Positions 29 through 37,093 of a DNA stretch of 37,093 nucleotides are shown one piece after another. Position numbers and translations under genes: made by a program. The notes below the pieces were generated by a model that saw nothing but the letters and a program-made list of their open reading frames with translations, had not been told where the DNA came from and searched no databases. Origin of the DNA: Candidatus Woesearchaeota archaeon (GTDB taxonomy: Archaea > Nanobdellota > Nanobdellia > Pacearchaeales > GW2011-AR1); NCBI GenBank assembly GCA_964604105.1, contig CAZRXO010000003.1, forward strand, positions 1 to 37,093, given 5' to 3'. Position 1 is the first letter of the stretch; each line of letters opens with the position of its first letter.

Positions 29-199
29 CTAAAAACTTTTGAGGGGTGCTATAAGTCTCTCATCGAAATTATCCCCCTCTAAAAAAGGTGTGTAATAAGT
101 GATTCTTGTTGGAGCTTTTTTATCCAAATCAATCGCAAGGTCGTGCATAAAAGTTCCTGACTTCTCATCAACCAATCGAACCAAATTTACTTGTACCAT
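29..199 (-). CDS. unannotated small ORF, 56 aa (MVQVNLVRLVDEKSGTFMHDLAIDLDKKAPTRITYYTPFLEGDNFDERLIAPLKSF), hypothetical
   Basis: Hand translation of the minus strand: ATG at 199, TAG at 29-31. Below the ORF-track length cutoff. Non-repetitive composition. Continues the minus-strand htpX unit. No motif recognised. Confidence 0.3.
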   Translation of the reverse strand: MVQVNLVRLVDEKSGTFMHDLAIDLDKKAPTRITYYTPFLEGDNFDERLIAPLKSF

Positions 200-5388: not shown

Positions 5389-5594
5389 ATTAAAAAATTA
5401 AAATGCCCGGGCACTTTACATGAAAGTTGTGAGCATTATTAGGCTGAATTATTTCTTTTTACCTTTTTTTGCAGGTTTCTTTTTTGCCATAGTTCCACAC
5501 CTCCTTTTGTAGCGGATACAATTGCACTATAGTTTAGTTTTTAAATTATTTGAGCCACTAAAAAGTTACATTTTTACAACGATAAACCTTAAAA

Positions 5595-5725
5595 ACCCTC
5601 GGTGTTCAAGTGATTTAATTAAACTTGGAGGTCGAGTGATTTCGAGACCCAACAAAGGGGGTATCCCTGTGGGAGGGTAAGGTTAACGAGCAATTATTAA
5701 CCTGTGCGGGGTCGCGAGAAAAGAT
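5595..5725. ncRNA. GC-rich structured segment (candidate sRNA or 5' leader), identity unknown
   Basis: Locally GC-rich in an AT-rich intergenic gap. Hairpins readable by eye: CCTC..CAAGT/ACTTG..GAGG at about 5598-5631, and GGTTAA/TTAACC at about 5681-5703. G-runs present. No family recognised. Confidence 0.2.
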
Positions 5726-5730
5726 TTAAT

Positions 5731-5853
5731 ATGCCAGAAGATGAATATGAAGAAGACGAAGAATCTGACGAGGATGAAGAAGACGAAGAATCTGACGATG
5801 ATGTAGCTGATGATTCTGACGAAGATTCTTTTGACGACGATGAAGAAGATTAG
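5731..5853 (+). CDS. unannotated 40-aa polyacidic micro-ORF (MPEDEYEEDEESDEDEEDEESDDDVADDSDEDSFDDDEED)
   Basis: Hand translation: ATG 5731, TAG 5851-5853. Contains a perfect 25-nt direct repeat with 27-nt period (5747-5771 and 5774-5798). Could be a non-coding repeat. Confidence 0.3.
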   Translation: MPEDEYEEDEESDEDEEDEESDDDVADDSDEDSFDDDEED

Positions 5854-6771: not shown

Positions 6772-7917
6772 ATGTTTAATAAAAAGGGGTTGTCCGCAGT
6801 TGTCGCCACATTAATGATTATTTTGCTTGTGTTAATTGCAATAGGAATTATTTGGGTTGTGGTAAAAAATGTAATCACTGAGGGTTCTGAACAAGTTTCA
6901 ATCGATAAATTTTCTTTAGATTTGAAAATAAAAAATGCAATGCTCAATGATGAAACAGGTGAATTAAATGTAGTTCTTGAAAGAGGGGCAGGTAAAGGAG
7001 AATTAAAAGGAATAAATTTTGTTTTATTTGACGGGACAAGCTCAGAAGTTGTAGAAGTTCTTGACTCTGCACAATCAATGCCTGGAGAACTTGAAACAAA
7101 AACATTTTCTGTTGCAGCAGAAGATTTGGAGGAATTAGAGATAGACAAAATAATAAAAGTTTCAGTCGCACCAATCTTTGAATCTAGTTCTGGGGAAAAA
7201 CAAATTGAAGATATTATCGCAGAAAGAGTCATTGGAGAATGTACTGATACTTGTGGGGATTTAGAATGTGGAACTGTTTGTGGAACAAGTTGTGGAACTT
7301 GTGAAGGAGGATATTCTTGTAATCAAGGTCAATGTGAAGAAACTCCTTGTGAAAAAGATTGCACAAATTTACAATGTGGTCTTGATCCAATTTGTGGAGA
7401 AAGTTGTGGAAGCTGTTCTGAACCAGAAACTTGTCAAGAAGGAATTTGCAAAGAACCAGTTGTCCCAAAAGATTGTAATGTCGACGGTTCTGCGAGTTCA
7501 ACAGGAGTAACTTGTTCTGGGGCAGGTGAAGATGAAACTTCTGCAACAATTGATTCTTGTGGAGATAAGGGCGGTACTTTCACTTATGTAGATAATATAG
7601 AATTAGATAAGTCAAAATTTTCTGTTGGAGAAGAAATCACCGTCGCTTGCAAAGTGCATTGTTTTTACATTGGTTCAACTTATTACAAGATATTTTACAA
7701 AAAAAATTCAGGAGATTGGAATGAAATATCTTCTGGTGCATGCCAAGGAGGGGGAGAAAATTATAAAGAATTTTTTGCAGAAACATTTACAATTGAAGAG
7801 GGAGATTCAACACAATATGTTCGGTGTGCCTCAGCACTTTATAATCCTTCTTATGAAGATGGTTGTTCCTCTGCAATGTATGTTGATCACGACGACTTAG
7901 ATTTTATTGTGGAATAA
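6772..7917 (+). CDS. archaeal type IV pilin-like protein (class III signal peptide) with two Cys-rich modules and a C-terminal globular domain
   Basis: N-terminus MFNKKG/LSAVVATLMIILLVLIAIGIIWVV fits archaeal pilin N-terminal domains (short basic leader, G, then hydrophobic helix). Two tandem CxxLxCG...CGxSCGxC...C..G.C modules at residues about 157-227. Confidence 0.8.
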   Translation: MFNKKGLSAVVATLMIILLVLIAIGIIWVVVKNVITEGSEQVSIDKFSLDLKIKNAMLNDETGELNVVLERGAGKGELKGINFVLFDGTSSEVVEVLDSAQSMPGELETKTFSVAAEDLEELEIDKIIKVSVAPIFESSSGEKQIEDIIAERVIGECTDTCGDLECGTVCGTSCGTCEGGYSCNQGQCEETPCEKDCTNLQCGLDPICGESCGSCSEPETCQEGICKEPVVPKDCNVDGSASSTGVTCSGAGEDETSATIDSCGDKGGTFTYVDNIELDKSKFSVGEEITVACKVHCFYIGSTYYKIFYKKNSGDWNEISSGACQGGGENYKEFFAETFTIEEGDSTQYVRCASALYNPSYEDGCSSAMYVDHDDLDFIVE

Positions 7918-7962: not shown

Positions 7963-10752
7963 ATGAAAGAGGCAGACTCAAAAAATAAGGTTGATTTTGT
8001 AAAATGGTTTTCTGAAATGAATAAAAACTCTGGAAATATTGCCGGAGGAAAAGGAGCAAACCTTGCAGAAATCTATAATTTAAAGGTCGCTGTTCCACCA
8101 GGATTTGTCGTCACTGCACAAGCTTATGATTATTTTATAGAAATAGCAGGAATAAAACAAAAAATTCGAGAACTTTTGTCAACAATAAATTATGAAGATA
8201 CAAAACAATTAGACAAGATAACAAAAAACATTCGAGCTCTCATAGAAGATTCAGAATTCCCAGAAGAGATGAAAGAAGAAATTATAGAATCTTATGAGCA
8301 ATTAGATGAAAACCCCGAAGATTTTAGAAGCAAACCAGTTTCAGATATTTTAAATGCAGCACACGAACCAACATTTGTCGCAGTTCGTTCATCAGCAACA
8401 GCAGAAGATTTAGCCGGAGCATCATTCGCAGGACAACAAGATACTTTTCTAAATGTAAAAGGCAAAGAAGATTTATTGCACAACATTAAAATGTGTTTCG
8501 CCTCGCTGTTCACTTCACGGGCAACATATTACAGAAATAAAAAAGGATTCAAACATGACCAAGTCAGCCTCGCTGTTGTAGTTCAGAAAATGATTGACTC
8601 TGACAAGTCGGGGGTAATTTTCTCAAAAGACCCCTCATATAATAATGAAAATGTAATTATCGAGGCTGTTTGGGGTTTAGGAGAAGGAATTGTTTCAGGA
8701 AAAGTAACGCCCGATCGTTATGTTGTTTCAAAAGATTTTAATATTTTAGAAAAAACCATTGCAGATAAAAAAATAGCCTTGACAAGAGATTCAGGGGGGG
8801 GGAAAGCAATTGTAAAATTAAGAGAAGAAAAATCAAAACACCAAGTTCTGAAGGATCATGAAATTGAAAAACTTGCAGAAATAGCAATAAAATTAGAAGA
8901 GCATTATGGAAAACCACAAGACATAGAATTCGCAATTGAAGACGATGAAATTTACATTGTGCAAACGAGACCAATTACCACAATGGAGAAAAGACATGAA
9001 GAACACGAAGTAAGAGAATTAAAAGGAGAAGTTCTTATCACAGGCTTAGCAGCTTCGCCAGGAATTGGTTCTGGAAAATTAAGAATTATTGAAGACTTAA
9101 AAGATTTAGATAAAATAAAACAAGGAGATATTTTAGTTACAAAAATGACAAACCCAGACATGGTAGTCACAATGCAAAAAGCAGCAGCAATAGTAACTGA
9201 CGACGGGGGCATGACTGCGCACGCTTCAATTGTCTCGCGAGAAATGGGAATCCCGTGCGTGGTTGGAACACATGAAGCAACAACATTGCTAAAAGACGGG
9301 GAAGTAATTACTGTCGACGGTTACACCGGAAAAATCTACAAAGACAAGGTTGCAGAGACGCAACAAAAAGAAGTAAAGAAAGTCACAGCACAAACAAAAA
9401 CAAAAATAAAAGTTATTGTTGATTTGCCAACATTCGCACCTCGTGCAGCTAAGACTGGAATTAAATCTGTGGGGCTTACTAGAATTGAGGGAATCATTGC
9501 AGAATCAGGAAAACACCCAAATTACTTTTTACAAAAAAACAAGATTGAAGATTATACAGAAGTAATTTTCAATGGAGTTAAAGAAATTGCAAAATACTTT
9601 GAAGAAATTTGGGTGAGAACTTCAGATATTCGAAGCGATGAATTTGAAAACCTTGAGGGATTTCCAGGATATGAAGAAGCAAATCCCATGCTTGGTCTTC
9701 ACGGAATTCGTTACAGTTTAAAGCAGCCAGAAATTCTAAAAGCAGAATTAAAAGCTTTACAAAAAGTTGCGCAAACAGGAACAAAGGTTGGATTACTTTT
9801 ACCTCAAGTTATTTCTGTCGAAGAAGTTGCAAAAGTAAAAGAATATTTAGAAGAAATAAAATTCAATGATGCACGAGTCGGGGTAATGGTAGAAACACCT
9901 GCGGCAGTTCAAATAATTGGGTTGCTATGCGACGAGGGGATAGATTTCATTTCATTTGGGACAAATGATTTAACGCAATATATCCTCGCTGTTGATAGAG
10001 GAAATGAAAAAGTTCAACATCTCTACAATGAATTGCACCCCGCAGTTTTAGCGCAACTCGCTTATGTCATAAGAGTTTGTAAAAGAAATAAGGTAGAAAC
10101 TTCAATTTGCGGGCAAGCAGGTTCAAAAAAAGAAATGGTTAAATATTTAGTAGAAACAGGAATAGATTCAATTTCTGTAAATGCAGATATGGCTGCGGAA
10201 ATTGCAGATTATGTTGCAGAGATAGAAAAAAATTCTCCAAATCAAAAACAAGAGGAAGAACAAAAAACAGAAATAAAAAAAGTAACCCCTGCAATGTTTG
10301 AAAAAAATAAACATAAAGAAGAAAACATTTTTGAAAAAGCAATAGATAAAGTAGAAGAAGTTGTCGGAGAATTCACTAATAATAAATCTGGGGAAGCTTT
10401 TGTATTACCTCCAGAAGTTTCAAATAAACTAGATGAAGAATCAGAAGAAGTTCCAGTGATAAGGGGTGCAGAAAACTTAGAAAAATCTGAAGAACAATCA
10501 GTTGAACAAGATGATGCAGTAGTTGAACCTCAGAGTGAAACTCCTTTCCCCTTAACAGATTCTCCTAGCAATAGCGAGCAAGATGAATTCAACCACGAAA
10601 ACATTTCAGAACATGACAAAGAGCATTTTGCGAAGACAGATGATGTTCCAAAACCAATAGAAAAACAAGAAGAAAACCAAGAGCCAGAATTTAATGAAGA
10701 TAATATATCTGAACACGAAAAACAAGAGGATGAAGTTCTAGATATTTTCTAA
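7963..10752 (+). CDS. ppsA: phosphoenolpyruvate synthase (pyruvate, water dikinase) with long acidic C-terminal extension
   Basis: ATP-grasp N-domain (GGKGANLAE), phosphohistidine swivel motif GGMTAHASIVSREMGIPCVVG, PEP-utilising TIM-barrel motifs (GTNDLTQY, SICGQAG). About 175 extra E/Q/D-rich residues after the catalytic core. Confidence 0.95.
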   Translation: MKEADSKNKVDFVKWFSEMNKNSGNIAGGKGANLAEIYNLKVAVPPGFVVTAQAYDYFIEIAGIKQKIRELLSTINYEDTKQLDKITKNIRALIEDSEFPEEMKEEIIESYEQLDENPEDFRSKPVSDILNAAHEPTFVAVRSSATAEDLAGASFAGQQDTFLNVKGKEDLLHNIKMCFASLFTSRATYYRNKKGFKHDQVSLAVVVQKMIDSDKSGVIFSKDPSYNNENVIIEAVWGLGEGIVSGKVTPDRYVVSKDFNILEKTIADKKIALTRDSGGGKAIVKLREEKSKHQVLKDHEIEKLAEIAIKLEEHYGKPQDIEFAIEDDEIYIVQTRPITTMEKRHEEHEVRELKGEVLITGLAASPGIGSGKLRIIEDLKDLDKIKQGDILVTKMTNPDMVVTMQKAAAIVTDDGGMTAHASIVSREMGIPCVVGTHEATTLLKDGEVITVDGYTGKIYKDKVAETQQKEVKKVTAQTKTKIKVIVDLPTFAPRAAKTGIKSVGLTRIEGIIAESGKHPNYFLQKNKIEDYTEVIFNGVKEIAKYFEEIWVRTSDIRSDEFENLEGFPGYEEANPMLGLHGIRYSLKQPEILKAELKALQKVAQTGTKVGLLLPQVISVEEVAKVKEYLEEIKFNDARVGVMVETPAAVQIIGLLCDEGIDFISFGTNDLTQYILAVDRGNEKVQHLYNELHPAVLAQLAYVIRVCKRNKVETSICGQAGSKKEMVKYLVETGIDSISVNADMAAEIADYVAEIEKNSPNQKQEEEQKTEIKKVTPAMFEKNKHKEENIFEKAIDKVEEVVGEFTNNKSGEAFVLPPEVSNKLDEESEEVPVIRGAENLEKSEEQSVEQDDAVVEPQSETPFPLTDSPSNSEQDEFNHENISEHDKEHFAKTDDVPKPIEKQEENQEPEFNEDNISEHEKQEDEVLDIF

Positions 10753-13841: not shown

Positions 13842-13896
13842 GATAACTCGCTGTCGCTCGAATATACTAACTCCAAATCCGCCATGAGGCAGGATT

Positions 13897-14053
13897 TTCC
13901 GTCGAGAAATCTATTAACCCAAAAACAACTTTCACATATATTTTAGACTAATGCTCACAGAGTTAAAAATATTTTCCTATTAATAACTTTTCCTCAGCGA
14001 GAAATTCGCCTGCAATTTCGAGCAATCAATTTTGCCGAAGGCAAGAATTCTAA
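13897..14053 (+). repeat. intergenic repeat family, copy A
   Basis: Contains gagaaatctattaacccaaaaacaactttcacat and agcgagaaattcgcctgcaatttcgagcaatcaattttgccgaaggcaag. Collinear with copy B by eye. Confidence 0.75.
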
Positions 14054-16126
14054 TCACTTCAGCATCAAACTAATATTTCTCTTAATATCAGCCTCTAAAG
14101 AAGCCTTTTTTTTATCTAAATCATCTTTTTGTCTTTTCAAATTATCCTGAATTTTTTTATTAAACTCTGCCTGAACTCTTTTTTTAAGTTCATTTTCTTT
14201 TCTAGCTAATTCTCTATCAAGTTCTGCATGAAGTTTTTCTGTAATCTCTTTAATCTTTTTAGCATCAGTCATTTTTAACTTTCTCTCAAAACTTTTTCTC
14301 CCAGTTAATAGTTCCTTCACAGTTCTTCTCTCAACAGAAAGATTTTCTCTAATATCTTGCAATGTCTGTTCTTTTTCATGAAGATGTCTTTTTACTTCTT
14401 TGATTTTCCCTTCATTTTCTTTTCGTTTCATATCAAGTTGCTTTTGAGAAAGTCTCTTTTGATTTTCAATCTCATTATTTAATCTATCTAAGAAATTTTT
14501 CTCCAACTCATCGTGAATCTTTTTCTTTTCTTCAATTAATTTAATCCTCAAATTTCTATTGGCTTCTGCAAGAAGTTTCTTCATTAAGATTCTTTTTTGT
14601 TCTTTAAATTTCTCTCTTTCTCTTTTCTTAATCTTATTAAATTCCTGTTGCAAAGAATGCTTTTTTAGTTCAATTGATTCAATATATTCTGCTTTATTTT
14701 TTTCAAACTCCTTTTCCTCTTTTTCAATAAGAACCTTTCCAGAATCAATTTGTTTTCTTAGCCTGTCCATTCGCATTCCTGCAAGTTCTTCTTTGCGCCT
14801 CAGGTTTTCATAATTATTCTTTAACTCTTGTTTAGATTTCTCAATTCTATTTTTTTGTTCCTGAATTCCTAAAAGAGTTTTATGCTCATGAAATTTAAGC
14901 TCATTCATATGTTTGTTATATCTTCCTTCTAAAATCTTTTTTCGGGAGTCGTAAATACCCTCCAATTTATCTTTTTCCCTTGAGATTGAGCTATTTAATT
15001 TTTTATTAAATTCTTCTTTTAATCTTTCTCTTCTTTCATTTGTTTGTTTCTTAACTTCAGCAACAACCTTGTTATGGAACTTCTCTTTCAAAACCTTTTC
15101 CTTAGATTCAATCTCACCATGAATTCTTTTAGTTCCTTCTTCAGAAATCTTTTTGTAATATTGTTTTTTTTCGCGTTCTAATTGAGCATTTTTCTCTTTT
15201 AATTTCTTTTCAACTTTATCAAAGAATTCTTTTTTATCATTAGCCAATTGAGCACGTTTCTCCTTTGTCTCTTTTTTAATTCTATTAAGAAGTTCTTTTT
15301 TTTCATTTTCTAACTGAGCATTTTTCTCTTTTAATTTCTTTTCAACTTTATCAAAGAATTCTTTCTTTTCATTAGTCAATTGAGAACTTTTTTCTCTTAG
15401 CTCTTTCTTAGTTTTATTAAAGAATTCTTTTTTATCAACTTCAATCTTCGCTGTTTTTTCATCAATTACTTTCTTAACTTCTCTTGCTTCTTCTTCTGTT
15501 AAATCTTTTTTAAGTCCAGTAATAAAATCAATGTACTTTTCATCAACTAATGTCCCAACTTCACCGTCTATTTTCCTCTTCTCTTCTTTTTTCTTTTTTT
15601 CCTCAAACATATTCTTTAAATTTCTAATTTGAGAATTTAGTTTTTTATATTCTTCATTTATTTTGTTATCTTTCAAACGAGCAATCTTTAATGCTTGCAA
15701 TCTTTTTTCTTCTCCAATCTCTCTTTCTCTTTTAGCAATTTTTAATGTCTGTTTGCTTTTTTGCTCTTCAAGTTCTTTATCTTTTTTCAATCGTGTAATC
15801 TGTGTCTTTAATCTCGGAACTTCTTCCTCCTTAAGTTTAGAATATTTTCTTCTAATCTTTTTTATTGAAGATGTTTTTTTCTTAATCTTCGCCATTTTCG
15901 TCTTTAGTTTTTTAAGTCTTTTTTCAATTTCATCAATAGAAGTGGGATCTTTTAGTTGGGATTTTATTATATTAACTTCAACCTCAAATTTCTTGGGCGG
16001 GTCAAGAATTCGAACTTCTCTTTTCAATTCTTTTAATCTATCGATTTTCTCCTCGTAATTCACAAATTTCTTAGGAATATTCTTAACTATTTTTTTAGAT
16101 TTTTTCTTTACCTCTTTCTTCGCCAT
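14054..16126 (-). CDS. 690-aa Lys/Glu-rich coiled-coil protein with 22-aa repeats
   Basis: ORF track. Almost entirely K/E/R/L heptad-like sequence. No TM or signal peptide. Immediately downstream of the giant membrane protein. Confidence 0.75.
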   Translation of the reverse strand: MAKKEVKKKSKKIVKNIPKKFVNYEEKIDRLKELKREVRILDPPKKFEVEVNIIKSQLKDPTSIDEIEKRLKKLKTKMAKIKKKTSSIKKIRRKYSKLKEEEVPRLKTQITRLKKDKELEEQKSKQTLKIAKREREIGEEKRLQALKIARLKDNKINEEYKKLNSQIRNLKNMFEEKKKKEEKRKIDGEVGTLVDEKYIDFITGLKKDLTEEEAREVKKVIDEKTAKIEVDKKEFFNKTKKELREKSSQLTNEKKEFFDKVEKKLKEKNAQLENEKKELLNRIKKETKEKRAQLANDKKEFFDKVEKKLKEKNAQLEREKKQYYKKISEEGTKRIHGEIESKEKVLKEKFHNKVVAEVKKQTNERRERLKEEFNKKLNSSISREKDKLEGIYDSRKKILEGRYNKHMNELKFHEHKTLLGIQEQKNRIEKSKQELKNNYENLRRKEELAGMRMDRLRKQIDSGKVLIEKEEKEFEKNKAEYIESIELKKHSLQQEFNKIKKREREKFKEQKRILMKKLLAEANRNLRIKLIEEKKKIHDELEKNFLDRLNNEIENQKRLSQKQLDMKRKENEGKIKEVKRHLHEKEQTLQDIRENLSVERRTVKELLTGRKSFERKLKMTDAKKIKEITEKLHAELDRELARKENELKKRVQAEFNKKIQDNLKRQKDDLDKKKASLEADIKRNISLMLK
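15170..15470 (-). repeat. in-frame tandem repeats inside the coiled-coil gene (66-nt / 22-aa unit)
   Basis: A 49-nt string tgagcatttttctcttttaatttcttttcaactttatcaaagaattctt occurs identically at 15183-15231 and 15315-15363. Degenerate units lie between and after. Protein unit is KKEFFDKVEKKLKEKNAQLENE. Confidence 0.85.
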
Positions 16127-19742: not shown

Positions 19743-21671
19743 TCACTCTTTATTCTTCTTTTCTTTTTTCTCTTTCTCAGATTCTTCTACTACTGGTTCT
19801 TCGGTAGCTTCTTCATCCACCCCTTCTTCTACTGGTTCTTCATTAGTTGCGGGTATGCTACTTTCTTCACCCACGATAGTTTCAGAGTCCCCCACAACAC
19901 TTTCATTATTTTCTTCTTCAGAGTTTATGACAAGGGCATCATTAGTTCCTCCCTCTCTTGTTTCAAAATCAAACAATCCAAATTCTTTATTCAAATCTGT
20001 AATTTCATTATCCCCAACATTCTCTGCGATTAATCCATTAGCTAGATCTTTCAACCAGTTTACAATATCTCTTTGCATCCAACTTTCTAATTTTAAATCT
20101 CCTAATTGCAAATCATAAAATCTTGTTGCAGATTTTCCGCCAAATTCAAACTTAACTTCAACACCCCCACTATGTTCTATCGCAGTTGTTTTTACAGAAG
20201 TTTCATTTCCAAATTCCTCAAGAAGAATAGCTTTTTCCTCCTCTGTCAAGAAAACATTTCTTAATTTAATTTTGTCCCCCAAAGTTAAATTTTCTTCTGT
20301 AAATTCTTCAATACTAATTTCTCCTTCTTCTAAATTTGCTTCTAAAGAAAGAATTTCCTCCCCACCATAAACTAAATTAATAATTAATTCTCCTGGTTTA
20401 AAAGTTAAATTCAATTGAGACAAATCAATAGCCAAAATTTTTCCTTCATCTCCAAGATAGTCTTCGCCAAATCCAGACTCTGTTTCAGAATAATCTGTTG
20501 TTACAAGAATGACTCCTTCATTAACTTCTAAATCTAAATTCCCCTCGCTGATTTCAACAAATTCCACAACACCCTCATCATTAGTTTCTTTAATCCTCAC
20601 AGAACCAGATTTAATTTGCGCGACATAATCTTCTCCCAACTCATATTCAAAATCATTTACAGACGAAACCTCGCCATTAATTTCTCCTTGTGCTAATTCT
20701 TCTTGAGTCACTTGACCGGTTAAAGATAAAAATACCTTTGAAAAAAATCCTGTAATTGTTTTAACAAATGCTCCAGTAACAGGAGCACCCCCTTCTGAAT
20801 TTTCTGATGAACTTTCTTCAGGACTTTCTGAACTTGAATCCTCGCCACTTGTTTCTTCTGGTTTTTTTTCTTTTTTCTCTTCGGTTTTTTCAGCTTTCTT
20901 TTCTTTTTTTATTTCTTCTTTATTAATTTCTGTTTCCTCAATAGCCTCTTCATCAACAGTGGCCTCGTCTTCTACAATAATTTCTTCACTTACTATTTCA
21001 GTTGTTTCTCCTTCACTTTCAGTTGTTGTTTCGCCTTCTTCAATATTTTCAGTATTTTCTTCTACCACCTCTTCACTTTCTACTTCTTCAAAAACTTCCT
21101 CCTCTTCTACCACTTCTTCACCACCCCTTTCAACAATTTCTCCGGTTTCAATTTCTTCTTCAACTTCTATAATTTCTAAAGTAAAATAAATTGTTTTTGG
21201 AATTTCTTTCTCACCTTCAACACCATAACCTAACCCCTCGCCAGAAATACTTTTTCCTTCAACATAAAAATCTCCTTCAGCAACTTCTTCAGTAGCCAAG
21301 GCCTCTAATTCATATTCATATGTTTCACCATTGTTTGTAAATACAACCTTTGTCGAGGCAGGGATGAATTCACCTTCTTTCAAGGAGAGTTTTATGATTC
21401 CTTCAAGAGATTCAGTATCAGTATAACTTCCTTCTAAACCAAGGCTAACTTTACCTGTGAGCCCATTAAAATTTCCAACAACATAAACAAGAGCCAATAA
21501 AATTGCAACCCCTAAAAAAATCCCTAAGAATTTTTTATTAAAATTAAATCCAGAAGAACCCCCTCCACTTCCATGATATTCTGAAACTACTTTTCCCCCA
21601 ATTCTTTTACTATGATAAATATAAGGCCCATACCTTTTACCATTCTTATAAATATATTTTTTATACACCAT
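19743..21671 (-). CDS. 642-aa membrane-anchored, highly acidic (Glu-rich) surface protein
   Basis: N-terminal basic motif MVYKKYIYKNGKRYGPYIYHSKRIGGKVVSEYHG, Gly/Ser linker, TM FLGIFLGVAILLALVYVV, then long E/V/T-rich ectodomain and an EKEKKEKKNKE C-terminus. Confidence 0.8.
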   Translation of the reverse strand: MVYKKYIYKNGKRYGPYIYHSKRIGGKVVSEYHGSGGGSSGFNFNKKFLGIFLGVAILLALVYVVGNFNGLTGKVSLGLEGSYTDTESLEGIIKLSLKEGEFIPASTKVVFTNNGETYEYELEALATEEVAEGDFYVEGKSISGEGLGYGVEGEKEIPKTIYFTLEIIEVEEEIETGEIVERGGEEVVEEEEVFEEVESEEVVEENTENIEEGETTTESEGETTEIVSEEIIVEDEATVDEEAIEETEINKEEIKKEKKAEKTEEKKEKKPEETSGEDSSSESPEESSSENSEGGAPVTGAFVKTITGFFSKVFLSLTGQVTQEELAQGEINGEVSSVNDFEYELGEDYVAQIKSGSVRIKETNDEGVVEFVEISEGNLDLEVNEGVILVTTDYSETESGFGEDYLGDEGKILAIDLSQLNLTFKPGELIINLVYGGEEILSLEANLEEGEISIEEFTEENLTLGDKIKLRNVFLTEEEKAILLEEFGNETSVKTTAIEHSGGVEVKFEFGGKSATRFYDLQLGDLKLESWMQRDIVNWLKDLANGLIAENVGDNEITDLNKEFGLFDFETREGGTNDALVINSEEENNESVVGDSETIVGEESSIPATNEEPVEEGVDEEATEEPVVEESEKEKKEKKNKE

Positions 21672-22896: not shown

Positions 22897-22995
22897 CTTT
22901 AAAAATCTTCTCTTCTATCGAAAGATATTTATACTAAAAATTATTAATTAGTTTATTCTATATATTTTATAGAAGTGAGAAAAGTGAAAGGAGGT

Positions 22996-23478
22996 ATGAT
23001 AATGATAAATAACAAAAAAGGTTTGTCAGCAATTGTTGCGACACTTATGATAATTTTACTTGTCTTAATTGCAGTTGGAATTATTTGGGTTGTTGTGCGA
23101 AATGTTGTTGAAAGTGGAACACAAAATATTGATATCGGTGCAAAATGTTTAGAAGTTGATGTAAGAGCTACTGCTGTTAGCCCAACTAACCAAGTTACCT
23201 TGGAAAGAGGTGCAGGGGGAATAAATATTGATGAAGCTAATGGGGGAGTAGTAATTGTATTTACTGATGGTCTTAACTCAGAGAGTTTTGATTTATGGAA
23301 AGACGGGGGATTAGAGGAAAATAAATTAAATCCTTTAGATACAAAAACAACAGTAGGTTTAGAAGGATTAACTGGTGCAGACATGGTACAAGTTACAGTG
23401 TATTTCAAAAATGACAAGGGGGAATCTCAACTTTGTGGTACAACAACAGAATATAGTTTTACTCCTGAACCAGCATAA
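22996..23478 (+). CDS. archaeal type IV pilin-like protein (class III signal peptide), paralogue of the 6772 N-terminal region
   Basis: MIMINNKKG/LSAIVATLMIILLVLIAVGIIWVVVRNV is near-identical to the 6772 product N-terminus. Shared LERGAG motif. Track ORF starts at GTG 22975; ATG 22996 follows a GGAGG. Confidence 0.8.
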   Translation: MIMINNKKGLSAIVATLMIILLVLIAVGIIWVVVRNVVESGTQNIDIGAKCLEVDVRATAVSPTNQVTLERGAGGINIDEANGGVVIVFTDGLNSESFDLWKDGGLEENKLNPLDTKTTVGLEGLTGADMVQVTVYFKNDKGESQLCGTTTEYSFTPEPA

Positions 23479-23540
23479 ATTTTACTTTTTATTTTTCTAT
23501 TTCTTTTTTATTTTAATACCCTAGCAAGAGCTTAATTCAA

Positions 23541-23703
23541 ATTGCTCCTCGCCAAATAATCTATTAATCCAGAAGTAAAATTCACATCGGTGAGATCAGT
23601 TGAACAAATGAATTAGATTTATTTCCTAAATAATAAATTTCCCTAAGCGAGAAATTCGCTTGCAATTTCGATCAACCAATCGAGCAAAGCAATCAATTTT
23701 TAA
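23541..23703 (+). repeat. intergenic repeat family, copy B
   Basis: attgctcc...aataatctattaatccagaagtaaaattcacatcgg...agcgagaaattcgcttgcaatttcgatcaaccaatcgagcaaagcaatc. Collinear with copies A and D. Confidence 0.75.
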
Positions 23704-23740
23704 TAGGTAATTTTAAAAACATCGGGATTCTTATTTCTTT

Positions 23741-24133
23741 ATGGATACTTTATTTTGGATTAGTTTATTATTTAAGATTTTTATCTGTGGACTTGTTTTA
23801 TGGATGTTATATAGTCTTCTTTATAAGATGCGCAAAAAAAAGGATTCTATAGGGGATAAAACTTTAGTTCTTATTTCAAGCATCTTTTTTTTATTGGCGG
23901 GTTTATTCTTTTTAATCCTTCTTATTTTCCTTGCACTTGTGAATATTCATGCTATCTTTAGTTGGGTTCCTCTCTTGTTTTTTTTAGCCATGATTTTATT
24001 TCTTGTCACAGGAATTCTTTTTTTAATCCGTTATTTTAAAATAAAGAAAAAGAAGGTTGTTAAAAAAAGAGTTTCATCTTTCAGAAGAAAAAGTAGGTGT
24101 ATTGCTTTACATTCGACGAAGTCAGTCCATTAA
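23741..24133 (+). CDS. membrane protein, 130 aa, 3-4 TM helices and basic C-terminus
   Basis: ORF track. The last roughly 11 codons are encoded by a short copy of the intergenic repeat. Confidence 0.55.
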   Translation: MDTLFWISLLFKIFICGLVLWMLYSLLYKMRKKKDSIGDKTLVLISSIFFLLAGLFFLILLIFLALVNIHAIFSWVPLLFFLAMILFLVTGILFLIRYFKIKKKKVVKKRVSSFRRKSRCIALHSTKSVH

Positions 24134-24136
24134 CTA
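24101..24136 (+). repeat. intergenic repeat family, compact copy I (5' attgct + ttacattcg + 3' module)
   Basis: cgacgaagtcagtccattaactact compared with cggcgaagccagtctattaattact (copy D) and cggcgaagccagttcattaattattt (copy E). Confidence 0.6.
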
Positions 24137-25327
24137 CTTCTTAACTCTCCGCAAAACATAAACCGCGTCATTCTTCCTCACAACTCCAGAAACATTAATC
24201 GCAACATCCTCGCTCTTCTTTCCTTGGGAAACTTGCCTGTGATTAATTTCCATTCTTTCAACTTTCGCGTGCTCAATTCCAGTTGTCTTTCCAATAACAC
24301 AAATTTCTTCACCAACTTTCAAACCAGAATTTAAACTAACAATTGCAACATTTATTTTTGGGTAATAATGTTTTATTTTTCCAACAAAATGTTTTTTTTC
24401 TATAGAAGCAGAATGTTCAACTTTTGCAAAATCTTTCGCCGAAGGCAAACCCAAGTAAAAACCAGAACTAAAACCACGATTGTAAACTTTCTTCAACTCT
24501 TCCATGCTCTCAAGAATTTCTTTTTTAGAGAGTTTATTATCCAGAGCTTTTCTATAAACTCTAACAACAGCATCCACATAACGAGGGTCTCTATTTCTGC
24601 CTTCAATCTTAAAACTTTTAATTCCTGAATTTTTCATTTTTTCAATAAACGGCAAAGTGCATAAATCCTTTGCAGACATAATCTTGTCATTCTCAACTTC
24701 AAGCTCATAACCTTCTTGATTGTCTCGTGCAACATAACTTCTCCGACACGGATGTAAACATTGTCCTCGGTTTGCAGATTTGTTAAATAAAAATTGCGAC
24801 ATAAAACATCTCCCAGAAACAGAAACACACATTGCTCCGTGGCAAAAAGCTTCAACATCAATAACATTTGAAATTTCTTTAACTTGCTTTAAATTTAACT
24901 CACGAGCAAGAACAATTCTCTTTGCTCCAAGTTTCTTATAAACTTTAGCAGCCTCGGAATTCGCCACAGAAGATTGGGTCGAGATATGAAATTCAACCTT
25001 GTGCTTTTTACATAAATTAATCACAGATAAATCCCAACAAATCACAGCATCAACATATTTTTTTGCAGTTTTAATTATTTTCTCAACTTTCATAAGTTCT
25101 TCATCATACATTATTGTATTCAGAGCCAAATACATTTTAATTTTTTTAGGTTTACAAATTTCTTTTATCTTTGGCAAATCTTTTAATTCAAAATTCCGAG
25201 CACCTGCCCGCATATTAAATCCTTGAATTCCAAAGTAAACAGCATTCGCTCCTGCATTCACAGCTGCAACTAACATAGGAAAATTTCCAACAGGAGCGAG
25301 GAGTTCATATGGGGGTTTTTGGTTCAT
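24134..25327 (-). CDS. peptidase U32 family protein
   Basis: EAFCHGAMCVSVSGRCFMS matches the U32 signature E-x-F-x2-G-[SA]-[LIVM]-C-x4-G-x-C-x-[LIVM]-S. N-terminal ELLAPVGNFPMLVAAVNAGANAVYFG. Confidence 0.9.
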   Translation of the reverse strand: MNQKPPYELLAPVGNFPMLVAAVNAGANAVYFGIQGFNMRAGARNFELKDLPKIKEICKPKKIKMYLALNTIMYDEELMKVEKIIKTAKKYVDAVICWDLSVINLCKKHKVEFHISTQSSVANSEAAKVYKKLGAKRIVLARELNLKQVKEISNVIDVEAFCHGAMCVSVSGRCFMSQFLFNKSANRGQCLHPCRRSYVARDNQEGYELEVENDKIMSAKDLCTLPFIEKMKNSGIKSFKIEGRNRDPRYVDAVVRVYRKALDNKLSKKEILESMEELKKVYNRGFSSGFYLGLPSAKDFAKVEHSASIEKKHFVGKIKHYYPKINVAIVSLNSGLKVGEEICVIGKTTGIEHAKVERMEINHRQVSQGKKSEDVAINVSGVVRKNDAVYVLRRVKK

Positions 25328-25357
25328 AAAGATAAAAGAAAGATTTGATATAAAAAT

Positions 25358-25435
25358 CCTCGCTTCGCGAGAGATAATGGCTTCACATTCGACTCTGTTA
25401 GAATGTTTCGCTAAGAAATCTATTAAGACAAAAGG
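25358..25435 (+). repeat. intergenic repeat family, copy C (rearranged or partial)
   Basis: CTCGCttcGCGAG hairpin, cttcacattcgac, gctaagaaatctattaagacaaaagg. Confidence 0.55.
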
Positions 25436-25802
25436 ATTTTTTCCACAGGTTCAAATAAGTCGCTTGTAATATAATTGAAGATGTCTTTTGGAAATATCCA
25501 TTTTGCATCAGAGATTTCTTCACTATCATTTATTTTTAATTCTCCTTCTAAAAATTCACATAAGTAATATGTAATTTCTTTTCCAGAATTTGGGTGTGTT
25601 CTCTTTCCAATTTTTCTAATTATCTTACATTTAATATTTGATTCTTCAAAGACCTCTCTTTTTAGTGCTTCTTCTTTTGTTTCATTTAGTTCTACTCTCC
25701 CCCAGGGAAAACCCATGTTAGGTTTGATTCTGTTAACTTCTTTTTAAGAAGTAGAATTTTAGAATCTTTTTTGATTATTCCTAAAACTACCTTGCTTTCC
25801 AT
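25423..25802 (-). pseudogene. NUDIX hydrolase interrupted by a frameshift in a G5 homopolymer
   Basis: Frame A (ATG 25802) reads MESKVVLGIIKKDSKILLLKKKLTESNLTWVFPGGE then stops. Frame B (track ORF 25423..25716) reads GFPWGRVELNETKEEALKREVFEESN. One extra G in the run at 25699-25703 would give W-V-F-P-G-G-R-V-E-x6-A-x2-REVFEE, an intact Nudix box. Confidence 0.75.
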
Positions 25803-26901: not shown

Positions 26902-27453
26902 TTATTTATTTTCACGATAAAAACATTTATTCACTAATTTTTTATCAATGAATCTAAACTTATTTTTCTTAATTAAAGCCCCAGAACAAATTTCTTTGAA
27001 GGCATAAACCTCAATATCTTTTTTCAAAGATTTTATAGCCCTAATTAATGGAGAAAAATCCCCGTCGCCAGAGATTAAAATTGCCTTATCATATTTATCT
27101 TTATTAGCATCCATAATCATATCAATCGCCAAATGAATATCATCGCCCTTAATTGAATAAAACTCTTCATCTAACTCATTTAATCGTTTCTGTCTTTTAC
27201 ATAAGATAACCTCAAATTTTTTCAATTTTTTCAATCGATTAAATAGTTTTTGTTGCCTTTCCCATTTGTTTATGTTTAGTTTTCGCTTTAAGGAAGCATT
27301 ATAATAATTAACCCTCACTAATTCATGATTCTTACATATCTCTTTAGCAAGTTTTTCAAAATCAAACATAAAGTCATTATATCTTTGATTTATTGTCTTA
27401 ATCCCATAAACAAAATTAGCACCATCAATATAAATACAAATCCTCTTTTTCAT
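26902..27453 (-). CDS. NYN (LabA/PIN-like) domain protein
   Basis: ICIYIDGANFVYG near the N-terminus and AILISGDGDFSPLIRAIK, the acidic signature of NYN/LabA domains. Confidence 0.85.
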   Translation of the reverse strand: MKKRICIYIDGANFVYGIKTINQRYNDFMFDFEKLAKEICKNHELVRVNYYNASLKRKLNINKWERQQKLFNRLKKLKKFEVILCKRQKRLNELDEEFYSIKGDDIHLAIDMIMDANKDKYDKAILISGDGDFSPLIRAIKSLKKDIEVYAFKEICSGALIKKNKFRFIDKKLVNKCFYRENK

Positions 27454-27466
27454 TTGATAAAAAATA

Positions 27467-27535
27467 CCGGCATTGCCGAAGCAAGACCGGGAGCACGTTT
27501 TGCGGGATGTCCGAAGACTAAGGCATTCCCTGACA
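27467..27535 (-). ncRNA. GC-rich double-hairpin element (two UUCG-loop hairpins) immediately upstream of the NYN start codon; 5' leader or small RNA
   Basis: Minus strand reads GGGAAUGCCUUAGUC-UUCG-GACAUCCC and CCGGUCUUGC-UUCG-GCAAUGCCGG, followed by UAUUUUUU and then the ATG 14 nt later. A TATA-like cttaaataatatttt lies further upstream (minus strand, about 27555-27570). Confidence 0.3.
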
Positions 27536-27582
27536 CCTAAAGTATAGAAATTAAAATATTATTTAAGTCTTTCGATAGGGGA

Positions 27583-27712
27583 ATTTGCTCCACATCTACC
27601 ACCAGTGTAGGTGTTCGCCAGGGAAAACCATTAACTAAAAGACAACTCCAACATTGAGGTTCAACAACTGATCACCCCACCAATCGGCGAAGCCAGTTCA
27701 TTAATTATTTGT
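27583..27712 (+). repeat. intergenic repeat family, copy E
   Basis: tttgctccacat...hairpin...ccattaactaaaagacaactcca...ggttcaacaactgatcaccccaccaatcggcgaagccagttcattaatta. Collinear with copy D. Confidence 0.8.
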
Positions 27713-27734: not shown

Positions 27735-28196
27735 TTATTTTCTTCCATAAAGAATGTTTTTGTATTGTTGTTTGGCTGATTCCAATAAGTCTTCATCAGC
27801 AAGAGATTCAAAATCATAATTCATTAGATCCTTTTCTTCCTCAGAAAGTATTTTTTCTTTTTCAAAGATCCAACCATAAAACTCTTCTGGAAGAGCATCT
27901 CTTCTTGCTTCATATTTTCTCGCTTCTTTCTCATATTTTTCTTTAAAGATTTTTTCAATTTCCAGATTATCTTCTAGTATAAGAAGGGTTAGATTTTTAT
28001 GATTTCTCCAACTACGAGGAGAATTAAGAATCTTATAAATTTTATTTACATATTTTACAGAAAATCTTTCACATACCTCCATTTTTTCTAAGGTTGCAAT
28101 ATATCTTTTGCCTGTGGGTGTTTCATAGGGTTCACTAACTTCATCAAAGCATTCTTCTTTATTTAGTTTTTCTAGTGTTGTAAGTAGTTTTTTCAT
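27735..28196 (-). CDS. hypothetical protein, 153 aa
   Basis: ORF track. 4-nt overlap with the upstream ORF. No motif recognised. Confidence 0.55.
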   Translation of the reverse strand: MKKLLTTLEKLNKEECFDEVSEPYETPTGKRYIATLEKMEVCERFSVKYVNKIYKILNSPRSWRNHKNLTLLILEDNLEIEKIFKEKYEKEARKYEARRDALPEEFYGWIFEKEKILSEEEKDLMNYDFESLADEDLLESAKQQYKNILYGRK

Positions 28197-30969: not shown

Positions 30970-31102
30970 GACGGAAGGAGGGAGTCGAACCCTCTTTGTA
31001 CGGAATTCGCGAGCTCGCACGAGGCATTGATATCAAGCGATAGTCTCTACCACGAACCTGCTCTCCACAACCGCACGTAATAACCGTTATACCACAACCG
31101 TC
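30970..31102 (-). tRNA. candidate tRNA-His (anticodon GUG at 31066-31068) with 60-nt intron (31005-31064) at the canonical 37/38 position
   Basis: Hand fold of the minus strand. G-1 pairs with C73. D arm GUAU/AACGGUUA/UUAC. Anticodon stem UGCGG/CCGUA formed across the intron, loop UUGUGG..U. 4-nt variable loop. T arm GAGGG-UUCGACU-CCCUC. Acceptor ACGGUUG/CUUCCGU has two U-U mismatches. No encoded CCA. Confidence 0.6.
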
Positions 31103-31256
31103 ATAATTCAATTTATTTAATTGAGTTGAATCCACTATAAAAAGTTTTTGAGAAAAAAAGTCACAACTAGAAAAAACATTACTTCGGACAATGCCGACAA
31201 TTCCTATTTTTAATTGTCATAGAAATATGAGCTATAGAGGGTATTTAAAATTTTCC

Positions 31257-31380
31257 AATTGCTCCAAAATCGCGCCAGCGCAGATTTTTCTGCTAAGAAA
31301 TTTATTAATCCAAAAGTAAACTTCACGTCGTTGTTCAACTAATCACCCTGACAATCGGCGAAGCCAGTCTATTAATTACT
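31257..31380 (+). repeat. intergenic repeat family, copy D
   Basis: aattgctccaaaat...GCAGAttttTCTGC...taagaaatttattaatccaaaagtaaacttcacgtcg...ttcaactaatcaccctgacaatcggcgaagccagtctattaatta. Confidence 0.8.
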
Positions 31381-31440
31381 TAATATCATTCGCGCAATTT
31401 ATTGCGAGCATTTTTTATATTCACTTTCCCACAACTAAAT

Positions 31441-36432: not shown

Positions 36433-37035
36433 ATGGAAAGTACTGAATTTTCTCAAGAGAAAAAATTAGAAGAAGTTATTATCGAGATTTGCGTGAAAAT
36501 TGCAAAAAGAGGTGAGGGGGCTTTATTTGTCATTGGAGAGGTAGAATATGACACCTTAGTAGATCAAAAAGTTCCGGAATTTAGCATTTTTGAAAACCCC
36601 AAATTATTAGAATCTTTAGCCCTAATGGATGGAGCAATAATTCTGGATAAAACTGGGACCCTGAAAGCTTATGGGGTCATGGTAAAATCTAAAAAAGTCT
36701 TCAAGAATTTTGGAACAAGGCATAGTGCTGCAATAAGCGCTTCTCTAATAAATGAGAATACTTCAATAATCGTCTCTGAAGAAGATAGGAAAATAAGAAT
36801 TTTAAAAGAAGGAAAAGTAATAATGCAGATTGATGCCTTGCAGAAAAATGTAGAAAAGTCAATCCCCGAGGCTGTTGGAATTTTAGAATCTGTAGGGGTT
36901 GGAGCTGTTGGAACAATTGGGGCAGGAATTTTAGCACCAACATTAGGATTAGCACTACTCCCGGGGATTGTTTTATTTGGTTCAGCCTATTATCTTGGAA
37001 AATTAATTCATAAAAAAGTAAAGACTAAATATTAA
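36433..37035 (+). CDS. diadenylate cyclase (DAC/DisA_N) domain protein with C-terminal membrane anchor
   Basis: GALFVIG, DGAIILD, GTRHSAAISAS and IIVSEEDRKI motifs of DAC domains. C-terminal hydrophobic GVGAVGTIGAGILAPTLGLALLPGIVLFGSAYYLG. Track ORF starts at TTG 36394; ATG 36433 is preferred. Confidence 0.85.
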   Translation: MESTEFSQEKKLEEVIIEICVKIAKRGEGALFVIGEVEYDTLVDQKVPEFSIFENPKLLESLALMDGAIILDKTGTLKAYGVMVKSKKVFKNFGTRHSAAISASLINENTSIIVSEEDRKIRILKEGKVIMQIDALQKNVEKSIPEAVGILESVGVGAVGTIGAGILAPTLGLALLPGIVLFGSAYYLGKLIHKKVKTKY

Positions 37036-37093
37036 TTGCTCCACATTCTGCTTCGCAGGCTGTCCCACAATTAACAAAATTTAAATAGTTTAT
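37035..37093 (+). repeat. intergenic repeat family, copy F (truncated by window end)
   Basis: aattgctccacatt-CTGCttcGCAG-gctgtcccacaattaacaaaa aligns with the 5' half of copy E. Confidence 0.6.

What the first reader, a model, noticed from the sequence alone, without database searches (positions are those of the whole stretch)
31257..31380. Dispersed, same-orientation intergenic repeat family with a position-conserved but sequence-variable GC hairpin
At least seven copies of a roughly 40-160-nt element lie in intergenic gaps. Copies: A 13897-14053, B 23541-23703, I 24101-24136, C 25358-25435, E 27583-27712, D 31257-31380, F 37035-end. Weaker possible copies lie near 5520-5630 and 2745-2830.

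Shared modules, read left to right on the + strand:
- (a)attgctcc
- a short GC hairpin
- (g)aaatctattaa(t/c)ccaaaag(t)aaa(c)ttcac
- ttcaac.a.tgatcacc
- caatcggcgaagccagt..attaatta, which contains a GGC-GAA-GCC mini-hairpin

The first hairpin differs in sequence between copies but stays a hairpin: D GCAGA/TCTGC, F CTGC/GCAG, C CTCGC/GCGAG, A GCC/GGC. This pattern argues for selection on structure.

All copies share the + orientation regardless of flanking gene direction (convergent, divergent or tandem). That fits neither simple promoters nor simple terminators. The elements are the main GC-rich islands in otherwise AT-rich spacers. I know of no described family matching this in archaea; that is from memory, not a search.
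Basis: seen in the sequence. Interest (0 to 1): 0.65.

Follow-up and report, generated by a model that had tools for sequence, protein, structure and literature searches.

The report
Modular intergenic repeats in a DPANN archaeon
A small family of about ten short, mosaic, non-coding DNA repeats, each with a short hairpin and a promoter-like box, lies between the genes of an uncultured lake archaeon; it looks like the small dispersed repeats known from bacteria (REP/BIME, BOX, MITE) and not like a structured RNA gene or an integron site.

Summary
The repeat family is real. Copies A, B, C, D and E match each other well beyond chance. I and F are supported by shorter motif tests. The two 'weaker copies' near 5520 and 2745 are not supported.

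- **Unit:** a 14-nt head (ATTGCTCCACATTC), a short GC hairpin of varying sequence, then TCTATTAAT, which resembles this genome's own BRE/TATA box. A long form adds CCAAAAGTAAACTTCAC and (A/T)TG TTC AAC TAA TCACC.
- **Arrangement:** D and E are a long unit plus a compact unit in tandem. A and B are two long units tail to tail plus a compact unit. I is one compact unit.
- **Orientation:** 'all copies in + orientation' holds for loci (7 of 7) but not for units, because A and B each hold an inverted unit.
- **Structure:** no consensus RNA structure and no Rfam match. Hairpin support is weak and alike on both strands.
- **Exclusions:** no attC boxes, and no transposase, integrase or reverse transcriptase in the window.
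- **Distribution:** absent from 185,579 species genomes and from about 0.35 Mb of related DPANN DNA. About 5-8 copies of the core module in the source metagenomes.
- **Position:** the left edges of D and E fall exactly where conservation with relatives stops.

Best reading (0.42): a lineage-restricted REP/BIME- or MITE-like DNA repeat carrying an orphan promoter-like box. Modest interest.

The parts
13863..13958 (+). Copy A, long unit, forward. The head is degenerate (ACTAACTCCAAATCC). Hairpin GCC-atga-GGC; module 3 at 13905-13937.
   Evidence: nhmmer E=2.6e-19; BLAST to L001 E=2e-18 and to D E=7e-9
13944..14031 (-). Copy A, long unit, inverted, lying tail to tail with the forward unit. Head at 14013-14026 on the minus strand; hairpin GCGA/TCGC.
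   Evidence: nhmmer E=1.3e-11 on the minus strand; 14-nt head hit
14017..14059 (+). Copy A, compact unit. Hairpin TTGCC-GAA-GGCAA at 14032-14044, then TTCTAATCAC.
   Evidence: Read; paired in the structure count; nhmmer compact profile E=0.03, but this copy was in the training set
23540..23600 (+). Copy B, forward long unit: head and module 3, with the hairpin interval deleted.
   Evidence: nhmmer E=5e-8; pattern hit 23558-23585
23588..23680 (-). Copy B, inverted long unit. On the + strand it reads GGTGAGATCAGTTGAAC, then inverted module 3, hairpin and head.
   Evidence: nhmmer E=1.9e-13 on the minus strand; BLAST to the reverse complement of D E=1.5e-4
23677..23706 (+). Copy B, decayed compact-like tail (CAATCGAGCAAAGCAATCAATTTTTAATAG). 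It abuts the true promoter of gene 23741.
   Evidence: Read; no stable hairpin; promoter motif at 23707
24099..24139 (+). Copy I, one compact unit: head TATTGCTTTACATTC, hairpin GAC-GAA-GTC, AGTCCATTAACTAC. It supplies the last ~11 codons and the stop of ORFan 23741-24133, and the stop of the U32 gene.
   Evidence: E=1e-5, but in the training set; frame read
25359..25455 (+). Copy C. GC hairpin CTCGC-ttc-GCGAG (25359-25371) overlaps the upstream end of the U32 promoter. Head at 25376-25393, AT hairpin CATTC/GAATG, module 3 at 25411-25435, whose TATTAA supplies the NUDIX stop codon.
   Evidence: nhmmer 25371-25455 E=2.5e-13; sequence; promoter motif at 25346-25361 on the minus strand
27578..27675 (+). 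Copy E, long unit. Head at 27583-27597, 7-bp hairpin CATCTAC/GTAGGTG, degenerate module 3, TTG AGG TTC AAC AAC TGA.
   Evidence: nhmmer E=1.3e-14. Conservation with relatives stops at about 27574
27670..27711 (+). Copy E, compact unit (ATCACCCCACCAATC GGC GAA GCC AGTTCATTAATTAT).
   Evidence: BLAST to D E=1e-10; exact 17-mer
31255..31350 (+). Copy D, long unit. Head at 31257-31271, hairpin GCAGA-tttt-TCTGC at 31280-31293, module 3 at 31294-31326, TTG TTC AAC TAA TCACC at 31331-31348.
   Evidence: nhmmer E=2e-20. Promoter-motif score 9.5 at 31296. Conservation with L099 stops at about 31252
31342..31381 (+). Copy D, compact unit (ATCACCCTGACAATC GGC GAA GCC AGTCTATTAATTAC).
37033..37093 (+). 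Copy F, cut by the window end. Exact head, hairpin CTGC-ttc-GCAG, then CAAAATTTAAATAG. It continues in L095 7714-7830 to the next gene's ATG.
   Evidence: The long-unit profile gives only E=3.3

Best explanation
These are copies of a lineage-restricted, modular, non-coding DNA repeat of the REP/BIME, BOX or MITE kind, in the chromosome of a Pacearchaeota-like DPANN archaeon.

The unit is a 14-nt head (ATTGCTCCACATTC), a short GC hairpin whose sequence differs between copies, and TCTATTAAT, a box like the genome's own BRE/TATA. A long form adds CCAAAAGTAAACTTCAC and (A/T)TG TTC AAC TAA TCACC. Units are strung together as tandem pairs (D, E), as tail-to-tail palindromic pairs (A, B, L001), or stand alone (I, C, F).

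Shown: the copies are homologous, mosaic, non-coding, next to unrelated genes, absent from relatives, and placed where conservation with relatives ends.

Inferred:
- They were spread or reshuffled by recombination or by non-autonomous transposition, using an enzyme encoded elsewhere in the genome.
- The hairpin matters as double- or single-stranded DNA, not as a folded RNA.
- The TATA-like box of at least some copies (D is the best) fires outward. This would give short orphan or antisense transcripts, or a second upstream promoter for the gene to the right.
For: - Homology network among A-E and two outside copies, L001 and L002, which lie next to unrelated housekeeping genes (phosphoribosyltransferase; PD-(D/E)XK nuclease).
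- Mosaic build with inverted units and compact units. Loose ends of other lake copies show the same two types of junction.
- Low copy number: Logan contig depth 32-47 on module 3 against about 6 on flanks, so about 5-8 copies at 80% likeness or more. Assemblies break at the copies.
- Restricted range: 0 hits in 185,579 species genomes; no unit in related DPANN loci L007-L011 and L087-L100; nothing in phage or plasmid collections.
- D's left edge is where identity to relative L099 stops, inside what is the U32 promoter in L099. E's left edge is where identity to L091 and L087 stops.
- No consensus RNA fold and no Rfam hit. Hairpin stability is alike on both strands.
- Module 3 of D scores 9.5 on a motif learned from the window's own leaderless promoters. 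The 21 training promoter sites score 9.4-15.8 or lower (U32 6.7). It shares ATTTATTAAT.CC with the PPDK promoter.
Against: - No terminal inverted repeats or target-site duplications could be defined for the single units.
- No transposase, integrase or reverse transcriptase is in the window.
- No strain-level empty site was seen in the lake contigs.
- Copies are few and diverged (67-85%) except for module 3. That fits old relics with one constrained piece as well as it fits an active mobile element.
- Module 3 of A scores only 6.4, and B, C, L001 and L002 score below 6, on a motif whose background rate at 6 or more is 3 per kb per strand. So promoter activity is plausible only for D.
- No RNA data exist for this organism.
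Confidence: 0.42

Rival explanations
1. Neutral relics. The units are decaying leftovers of old local duplications and rearrangement junctions in a fast-reshuffling DPANN genome. They have no mobility of their own and no function. Module 3 stays similar only because it is the youngest part or because of gene conversion.
For: - Few, diverged copies.
- Four to seven of roughly ten copies lie within 23 kb, in one orientation.
- The edges of D and E coincide with synteny breaks.
- The same spacer as D also holds a small ORF and promoter resembling the start of the ferredoxin gene at 5927. So promoter-plus-gene-start fragments do get copied here.
Against: - The closest relatives of A and D are outside copies next to unrelated genes (A~L001 82%, D~L002 91%), not their window neighbours.
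- Module 3 is nearly identical between L001, L002 and D, while their flanks are unalignable.
- Hairpins are kept with different stems.
Confidence: 0.2
2. A regulon signature. Module 3 is a promoter with an operator (CCAAAAGTAAACTTCAC, between TATA and the start site) bound by one regulator, for example one of the HTH_10, TrmB or AsnC proteins encoded nearby. The rest of the unit is hitch-hiking upstream sequence.
For: - A 30-nt block is conserved well beyond what a BRE/TATA needs.
- The TATA-like box is in the right sense.
- Four units (B, D, F, L002) have a co-oriented gene downstream.
- Several regulators are in the window.
Against: - Real promoters here sit a fixed 34 nt before the ATG. No module 3 does, and the co-oriented genes have their own correctly spaced promoter.
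- Six of ten units point at the 3' end of a convergent gene or at nothing.
- A and B hold two module 3 copies face to face, about 25-60 nt apart.
Confidence: 0.13
3. A family of small non-coding RNA genes. Module 3 is the promoter, and the RNA is module 4 plus the compact unit (about 60-90 nt), perhaps acting as an antisense or trans regulator.
For: - Promoter-like box upstream.
- D and E share 85% over the would-be RNA.
- A small GAA hairpin with compensatory changes.
- A T-run follows D at 31411-31416.
Against: - No Rfam hit and no consensus fold. Whole-element fold z-scores are unremarkable for D and E (-1.8 to +0.7).
- Only D and E have this 'RNA'. A, B, C, L001 and L002 carry something else after module 3.
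- E's own promoter box is degenerate.
- There is no shared terminator.
- The family is absent from relatives.
Confidence: 0.1
4. Recombination sites of a cassette system: integron attC sites, or an unrecognised analogue that shuffles gene blocks.
For: - Sites are co-oriented, clustered and carry hairpins at gene-block boundaries, whatever the gene direction.
- Single-gene blocks are bounded by units (ORFan 23741-24133 between B and I; U32 between I and C).
- Unit edges lie at synteny breaks.
- Integrons are reported in Nanoarchaeota (PMC9668308).
- GTTCAAC / GTTGAAC fits RYYYAAC / GTTRRRY.
Against: - No R''...R' box pair with complementarity lies at any element.
- No tyrosine recombinase is in the window.
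- Blocks run up to 9.6 kb, and their genes carry their own promoters in both directions.
- Relatives carry the same genes without units.
Confidence: 0.06

Closest known systems
Bacterial REP / BIME elements and REPINs
   Same: Short intergenic units built round an imperfect palindrome. They are combined in direct and inverted order with linker motifs into mosaic clusters. Tail-to-tail doublets form long hairpins, as in A, B and L001. Single units stand beside doublets.
   Different: About ten copies, not hundreds. The unit is 40-95 nt, not 20-40 nt. The stem sequence is not conserved. No RAYT / Y1 transposase was found. The host is an archaeon. This comparison rests on general knowledge of the families; no sequence relation was found.
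MITEs that carry promoters (for example Correia elements) and pneumococcal BOX elements
   Same: Non-coding and modular (boxA-B-C style). Found in spacers. Can carry outward-reading promoter boxes and form hairpins. Restricted to one lineage.
   Different: No terminal inverted repeats or target-site duplication shown for single units. No parent IS known. Mobility not demonstrated.
Halovirus HF2 intergenic repeats that carry promoters (PMC8707807; abstract seen)
   Same: Archaeal setting. Repeated intergenic blocks of 29-58 bp whose AT-rich motif is a promoter.
   Different: Those lie in a virus genome, upstream of genes they drive. Here the box is mostly orphan and the DNA is chromosomal (HisRS, PPDK, diphthamide synthase).
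Integron attC sites, including the archaeal ones (PMC9668308)
   Same: Co-oriented, structure-defined, sequence-variable sites at cassette boundaries, clustered in one region.
   Different: The R''/R' and L''/L' architecture is absent, there is no IntI, block sizes do not fit cassettes, and the genes have their own promoters.
IS200/IS605-derived PATE elements
   Same: Subterminal hairpins, no terminal inverted repeats, and a possible strand or orientation bias.
   Different: No TnpA or TnpB nearby. Stems are only 3-7 bp. No conserved target tetranucleotide was identified.

Membership tests
Any Rfam RNA family | Covariance-model score at or above the gathering threshold | tested here: not met
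   The only hit is a tRNA at 30970-31101. At E<=5 there is nothing at the elements.
Structured ncRNA gene (generic) | Consensus secondary structure shared by the copies, with covariation | tested here: not met
   RNAalifold on 8 units gives -0.12 kcal/mol. Only a 3-bp GAA hairpin in compact units is kept, and 32 of 500 shuffles do as well.
Integron attC | RYYYAAC ... GTTRRRY boxes 45-150 nt apart and complementary | tested here: not met
   Own scan: 2 distinct candidates (found on both strands), both inside coding regions (20150-20290, 27868-27994), none at an element.
Integron attC | Integron integrase (tyrosine recombinase) next to the array, or a CALIN with cassette-sized spacing | tested here: not met
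   No Phage_integrase hit in any window ORF. Spacing is 0.5-9.6 kb, with promoters of their own.
MITE | Terminal inverted repeats | tested here: inconclusive
   A, B and L001 are tail-to-tail unit pairs, that is, long inverted repeats. C, D, E, F and I have none.
MITE | Target-site duplication and empty sites in related genomes | tested here: inconclusive
   No duplication is visible. Relatives lack the units, but their flanking genes also differ, so no clean empty site exists.
MITE | Parent IS or transposase with matching ends in the same genome | not testable with these tools
   Only 37 kb plus two short contigs of this genome are available. None is in the window.
REP / BIME / REPIN | Short palindromic unit, in mosaic clusters with alternating orientation, in spacers | tested here: met
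   Unit with hairpin; A and B read unit -> <- unit ->.
REP / BIME / REPIN | High copy number and an associated RAYT (Y1 transposase) | tested here: not met
   About 5-8 copies of the core by depth. No Y1 transposase in the window.
Archaeal BRE/TATA promoter | Match to the genome's own promoter motif, placed about 34 nt before a start | tested here: inconclusive
   D scores 9.5, among the training promoter sites (9.4-15.8, some lower). A scores 6.4 and the others below 6. No long ORF starts 34 nt downstream, only 3-5-codon mini-ORFs in D, E, L002 and one lake copy.
C/D box sRNA | C (RUGAUGA) and D (CUGA) boxes with a terminal stem | tested here: not met
   By eye no C box is present on either strand of the units. 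The weak Rfam C/D hits lie at 5743-5812, in an acidic coding repeat.
Diversity-generating retroelement TR/VR | Reverse transcriptase nearby | tested here: not met
   No RVT domain in any window ORF. The adenine-specific mismatch pattern was not tested formally.

The most novel reading that the evidence does not exclude
The units are the recognition sites of an as yet unrecognised site-specific recombination system in DPANN archaea that moves or inverts blocks of one to several genes. It would be an integron-like shuffling system with its own kind of site: a conserved head, a structure-only hairpin and an ATTAAT core. This would explain the co-orientation, the clustering within 23 kb, the units bounding single genes (ORFan 23741-24133, U32), and unit edges falling exactly at synteny breakpoints.
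Probability: 0.06. Interest if true: 0.8.

Novelty: new member of a known kind. Interest (0 to 1): 0.33.

Why it matters
Small dispersed repeats are well described in bacteria but little described in DPANN archaea. In the library searched here, only three papers mention both DPANN and miniature inverted-repeat elements, and none is about a DPANN repeat family.

A repeat that carries a promoter-like box and sits at synteny breakpoints could help explain how these tiny genomes reshuffle gene order and acquire orphan or antisense transcription. It also explains a practical problem: every assembly of this organism breaks at these copies.

As it stands, this is a descriptive addition, not a new principle.

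Tried and rejected
- **Rfam**, at gathering and at E<=5: nothing at the elements.
- **Split or fragmented tRNA halves:** ARAGORN finds none, and I could fit no cloverleaf by eye.
- **GC-rich stretch left of E (27454-27545):** first suspected to be part of the family. It is the conserved 5' leader of the NYN gene.
- **attC scan:** negative.
- **Small proteins encoded by the units:** ORFs differ in frame and length between copies (D minus strand 47 aa, E 9 aa, B 3-8 aa), so no.
- **Decayed copy of the pilin-gene promoter plus MFNKKG start:** alignment z<=1.5, rejected.
- **Anti-Shine-Dalgarno mimic in module 4 (GAUCACC):** noted but untestable, so left aside.
- **E as a clean insertion into an orthologous spacer:** I first believed this because L091 has 93-aa and 151-aa genes in the same order. 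They are not homologous, so only 'conservation stops at the unit edge' stands.
- **More copies from relatives:** about 0.35 Mb of related DPANN loci holds none.
- **RNA runs:** none available.
- **Phage, plasmid and viral-contig collections:** no match.
- **Covariance model:** not built, because there is no consensus structure and hairpin arms could not be put in register by MAFFT.

Full report
**Setting**

The window has 31% GC. It carries ordinary chromosomal genes: HisRS, pyruvate phosphate dikinase, diphthamide synthase, MscS, a U32 peptidase, and TrmB, HTH_10 and AsnC regulators. It also holds a tRNA with a 63-nt intron and pilin-like paralogues.

The closest genomes are Pacearchaeota and Woesearchaeota MAGs, at 58-68% identity for the U32 peptidase. 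The DNA occurs in lake-water metagenomes. No transposase, integrase or reverse transcriptase is encoded in the window.

Yes, for the core.
- Self-BLAST links A-B (E=3e-16), D-E (1e-9), A-D (1e-7), B-D (1e-6) and C-D (1e-4).
- A 28-column pattern of module 3 hits A, B and D, with none expected.
- A profile of the units recovers D, A, E, C and B at E=2e-20 to 5e-8.
- I is supported by the 17-mer of module 5 (3 hits against 0.01 expected) and by the 14-nt head.
- F has an exact head and a hairpin but is weak on the long profile (E=3.3).
- The suggested copies at 5520 and 2745 get no support.
- Elements have 37.5% GC, against 27.3% for the other spacers.

**Anatomy**

| Form | Composition |
|---|---|
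| Compact unit (I; the right ends of D, E and A) | head ATTGCTCCACATTC or a diverged version; 3-5-bp hairpin closed on a GAA loop; AG; TCTATTAAT(TAC) |
| Long unit | the same head; a larger hairpin of quite different sequence; AAGAAATCTATTAATCC; CCAAAAGTAAACTTCAC; then 6-7 nt and (A/T)TG TTC AAC TAA TCACC |

| Locus | Arrangement |
|---|---|
| D, E | long + compact, in tandem |
| A, B, and outside copy L001 | long unit, then a second long unit inverted (tail to tail), then a compact unit |
| C | a long unit cut short by the end of the NUDIX gene |
| I | lies on the 3' end of ORFan 23741-24133 and provides its last codons and stop |

So 'same orientation' is true of the seven loci but not of the units.

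**Structure**

- RNAalifold sees no shared fold (-0.12 kcal/mol).
- Whole-element fold z-scores are unremarkable, except for the palindromic A and B.
- The interval between head and box folds better than shuffles when copies are pooled (Stouffer z=-3.7). This is true of both strands, and it fails in L001.
- The GAA hairpin is paired in all four compact units, with compensatory changes at two of three pairs. With four sequences, 32 of 500 shuffles match that.
- The hairpin tendency is therefore real but weak and not strand-specific. That fits a DNA palindrome at least as well as an RNA.

**Promoter likeness**

The window's own genes are mostly leaderless. A motif AAAnTTTTATAAACTC sits a fixed 34 nt before the ATG.
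- D's module 3 (AGAAATTTATTAATCC) scores 9.5, among the promoter sites the motif was learned from (9.4-15.8, some lower). It nearly repeats the PPDK promoter.
- A scores 6.4 and the rest below 6, on a motif with about 3 chance hits per kb per strand at that level.
- No long ORF follows at 34 nt.
- In the type with forward module 4, a start codon lies 33-36 nt after the box and is followed at once by TTC AAC TAA. This holds for D, L002 and one lake copy; E has TTG AGG TTC AAC AAC TGA.
- I note this as a possible leaderless mini-ORF or the stump of an old gene start. I cannot tell which.

**Distribution and copy number**

- The strict module-3 pattern is absent from one genome each of 185,579 species.
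- In JGI metagenomes it occurs only in this population: L004 is copy A itself, and L001/L005 and L002/L003 are two further copies.
- Those two copies lie beside a phosphoribosyltransferase and a PD-(D/E)XK nuclease gene, unrelated to the window's genes.
- Logan contig depth over module 3 is 32-47 against about 6 on single-copy flanks, so about 5-8 copies. The right half is at 3-5 copies.
- Loose ends reveal a few more copies with the same two junction types.
- Assemblies break at the copies.
- Related DPANN loci (about 0.35 Mb) hold none.

**Position**

In C, D and E the head lies 2-15 nt upstream of a true minus-strand promoter: U32, a small conserved ORF next to the tRNA, and NYN.

For D, relative L099 has the same tRNA and spacer up to GGGT(A/T)TTTAAAATT. 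There that sequence is the promoter of its U32 gene, and identity ends at window 31252, three bases before D. In the window, U32 sits 6 kb away, inverted, next to C.

For E, identity with L091 and L087 covers the NYN gene, its leader and its promoter, and ends at about 27574. The genes beyond are unrelated.

The units therefore mark block boundaries. Whether they caused the rearrangements, were inserted there, or are filler left by them cannot be decided.

**Verdict**

The best-supported reading is a lineage-restricted, modular REP/BIME- or MITE-like DNA repeat that carries an orphan promoter-like box (0.42).

| Rival | Confidence |
|---|---|
| Neutral relics of duplication and rearrangement | 0.20 |
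| Shared promoter-operator of a regulon | 0.13 |
| Small RNA gene family | 0.10 |
| Recombination sites, attC or an analogue | 0.06 |

It is a new member of a known kind. Interest is modest.

Noticed in passing
window 27454-27572, minus strand: The NYN/LabA gene (26902-27453) has a conserved, structured 5' leader of about 85 nt behind its promoter (AAAGACTTAAATAATA, 27557-27572). It has four helices, two with C(UUCG)G loops. The last is a CCGG..UUGC-UUCG-GCAA..CCGG hairpin followed by U5-7 right before the AUG, which looks like an attenuator. It is conserved in L087, L088 and L091 with two compensatory pairs (-21 kcal/mol consensus). Contig depth is about 10x the flanks, so many lake DPANN share it. 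No Rfam hit.
   Followed up: partly
window 30970-31101, minus strand; L099 about 9770-9850: The tRNA has a 63-nt intron that only the Rfam model finds (ARAGORN misses it). The same tRNA in relative L099 lacks the long intron.
   Followed up: partly
window 31165-31254, minus strand: The fourth-strongest promoter-motif hit in the window (score 13.7) lies exactly 34 nt before a 13-codon ORF, MTIKNRNCRHCPK*. The ORF is conserved in L099 (MTNKARNCRHRSSK*). Its promoter and first codons resemble those of the ferredoxin gene at 5927. It is followed by a hairpin and a T-run, upstream of the tRNA.
   Followed up: partly
window 23741-24133, plus strand: This 130-aa membrane-like ORF has a correctly spaced promoter, but it has no relative at all among 1.84 billion representative proteins. 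Its C-terminus is encoded by repeat unit I.
   Followed up: yes
window 31331-31342, 27655-27672; L002 about 1449-1438 (minus strand): Leaderless-looking mini-ORFs (M)FN* or (M)RFNN* begin 33-36 nt after the promoter-like box of the long units.
   Followed up: partly
window 5583-5733, plus strand: A promoter-like motif at 5583 is followed by a GC-rich ~115-nt leader (fold z=-1.7) before a very acidic small ORF starting at about 5731. The weak Rfam C/D-box hits at 5743-5812 are in that coding repeat and look spurious.
   Followed up: partly
window 15161-15424, inside gene 14054-16126: 66-nt tandem repeats lie inside a 690-aa protein with no Pfam domain. The neighbouring 1099-aa and 642-aa proteins also have no domain hits.
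   Followed up: no
window 6772-6872 and 22975-23105: Two pilin-like genes share an 81% identical 96-nt 5' region that encodes NKKGLSAVVATLMIILLVLIA.
   Followed up: no
window 25423-25716, minus strand: The NUDIX gene is only 97 aa and matches the Pfam model from position 33 on, so it may be truncated at the N-terminus. Its stop codon lies in the TATTAA of unit C.
   Followed up: no
window 165-190: The sequence TCATCAACCAATCGAACCAAATTT resembles the right end of copy B (GATCAACCAATCGAGCAAAGCAAT). It was not significant in BLAST or nhmmer.
   Followed up: partly
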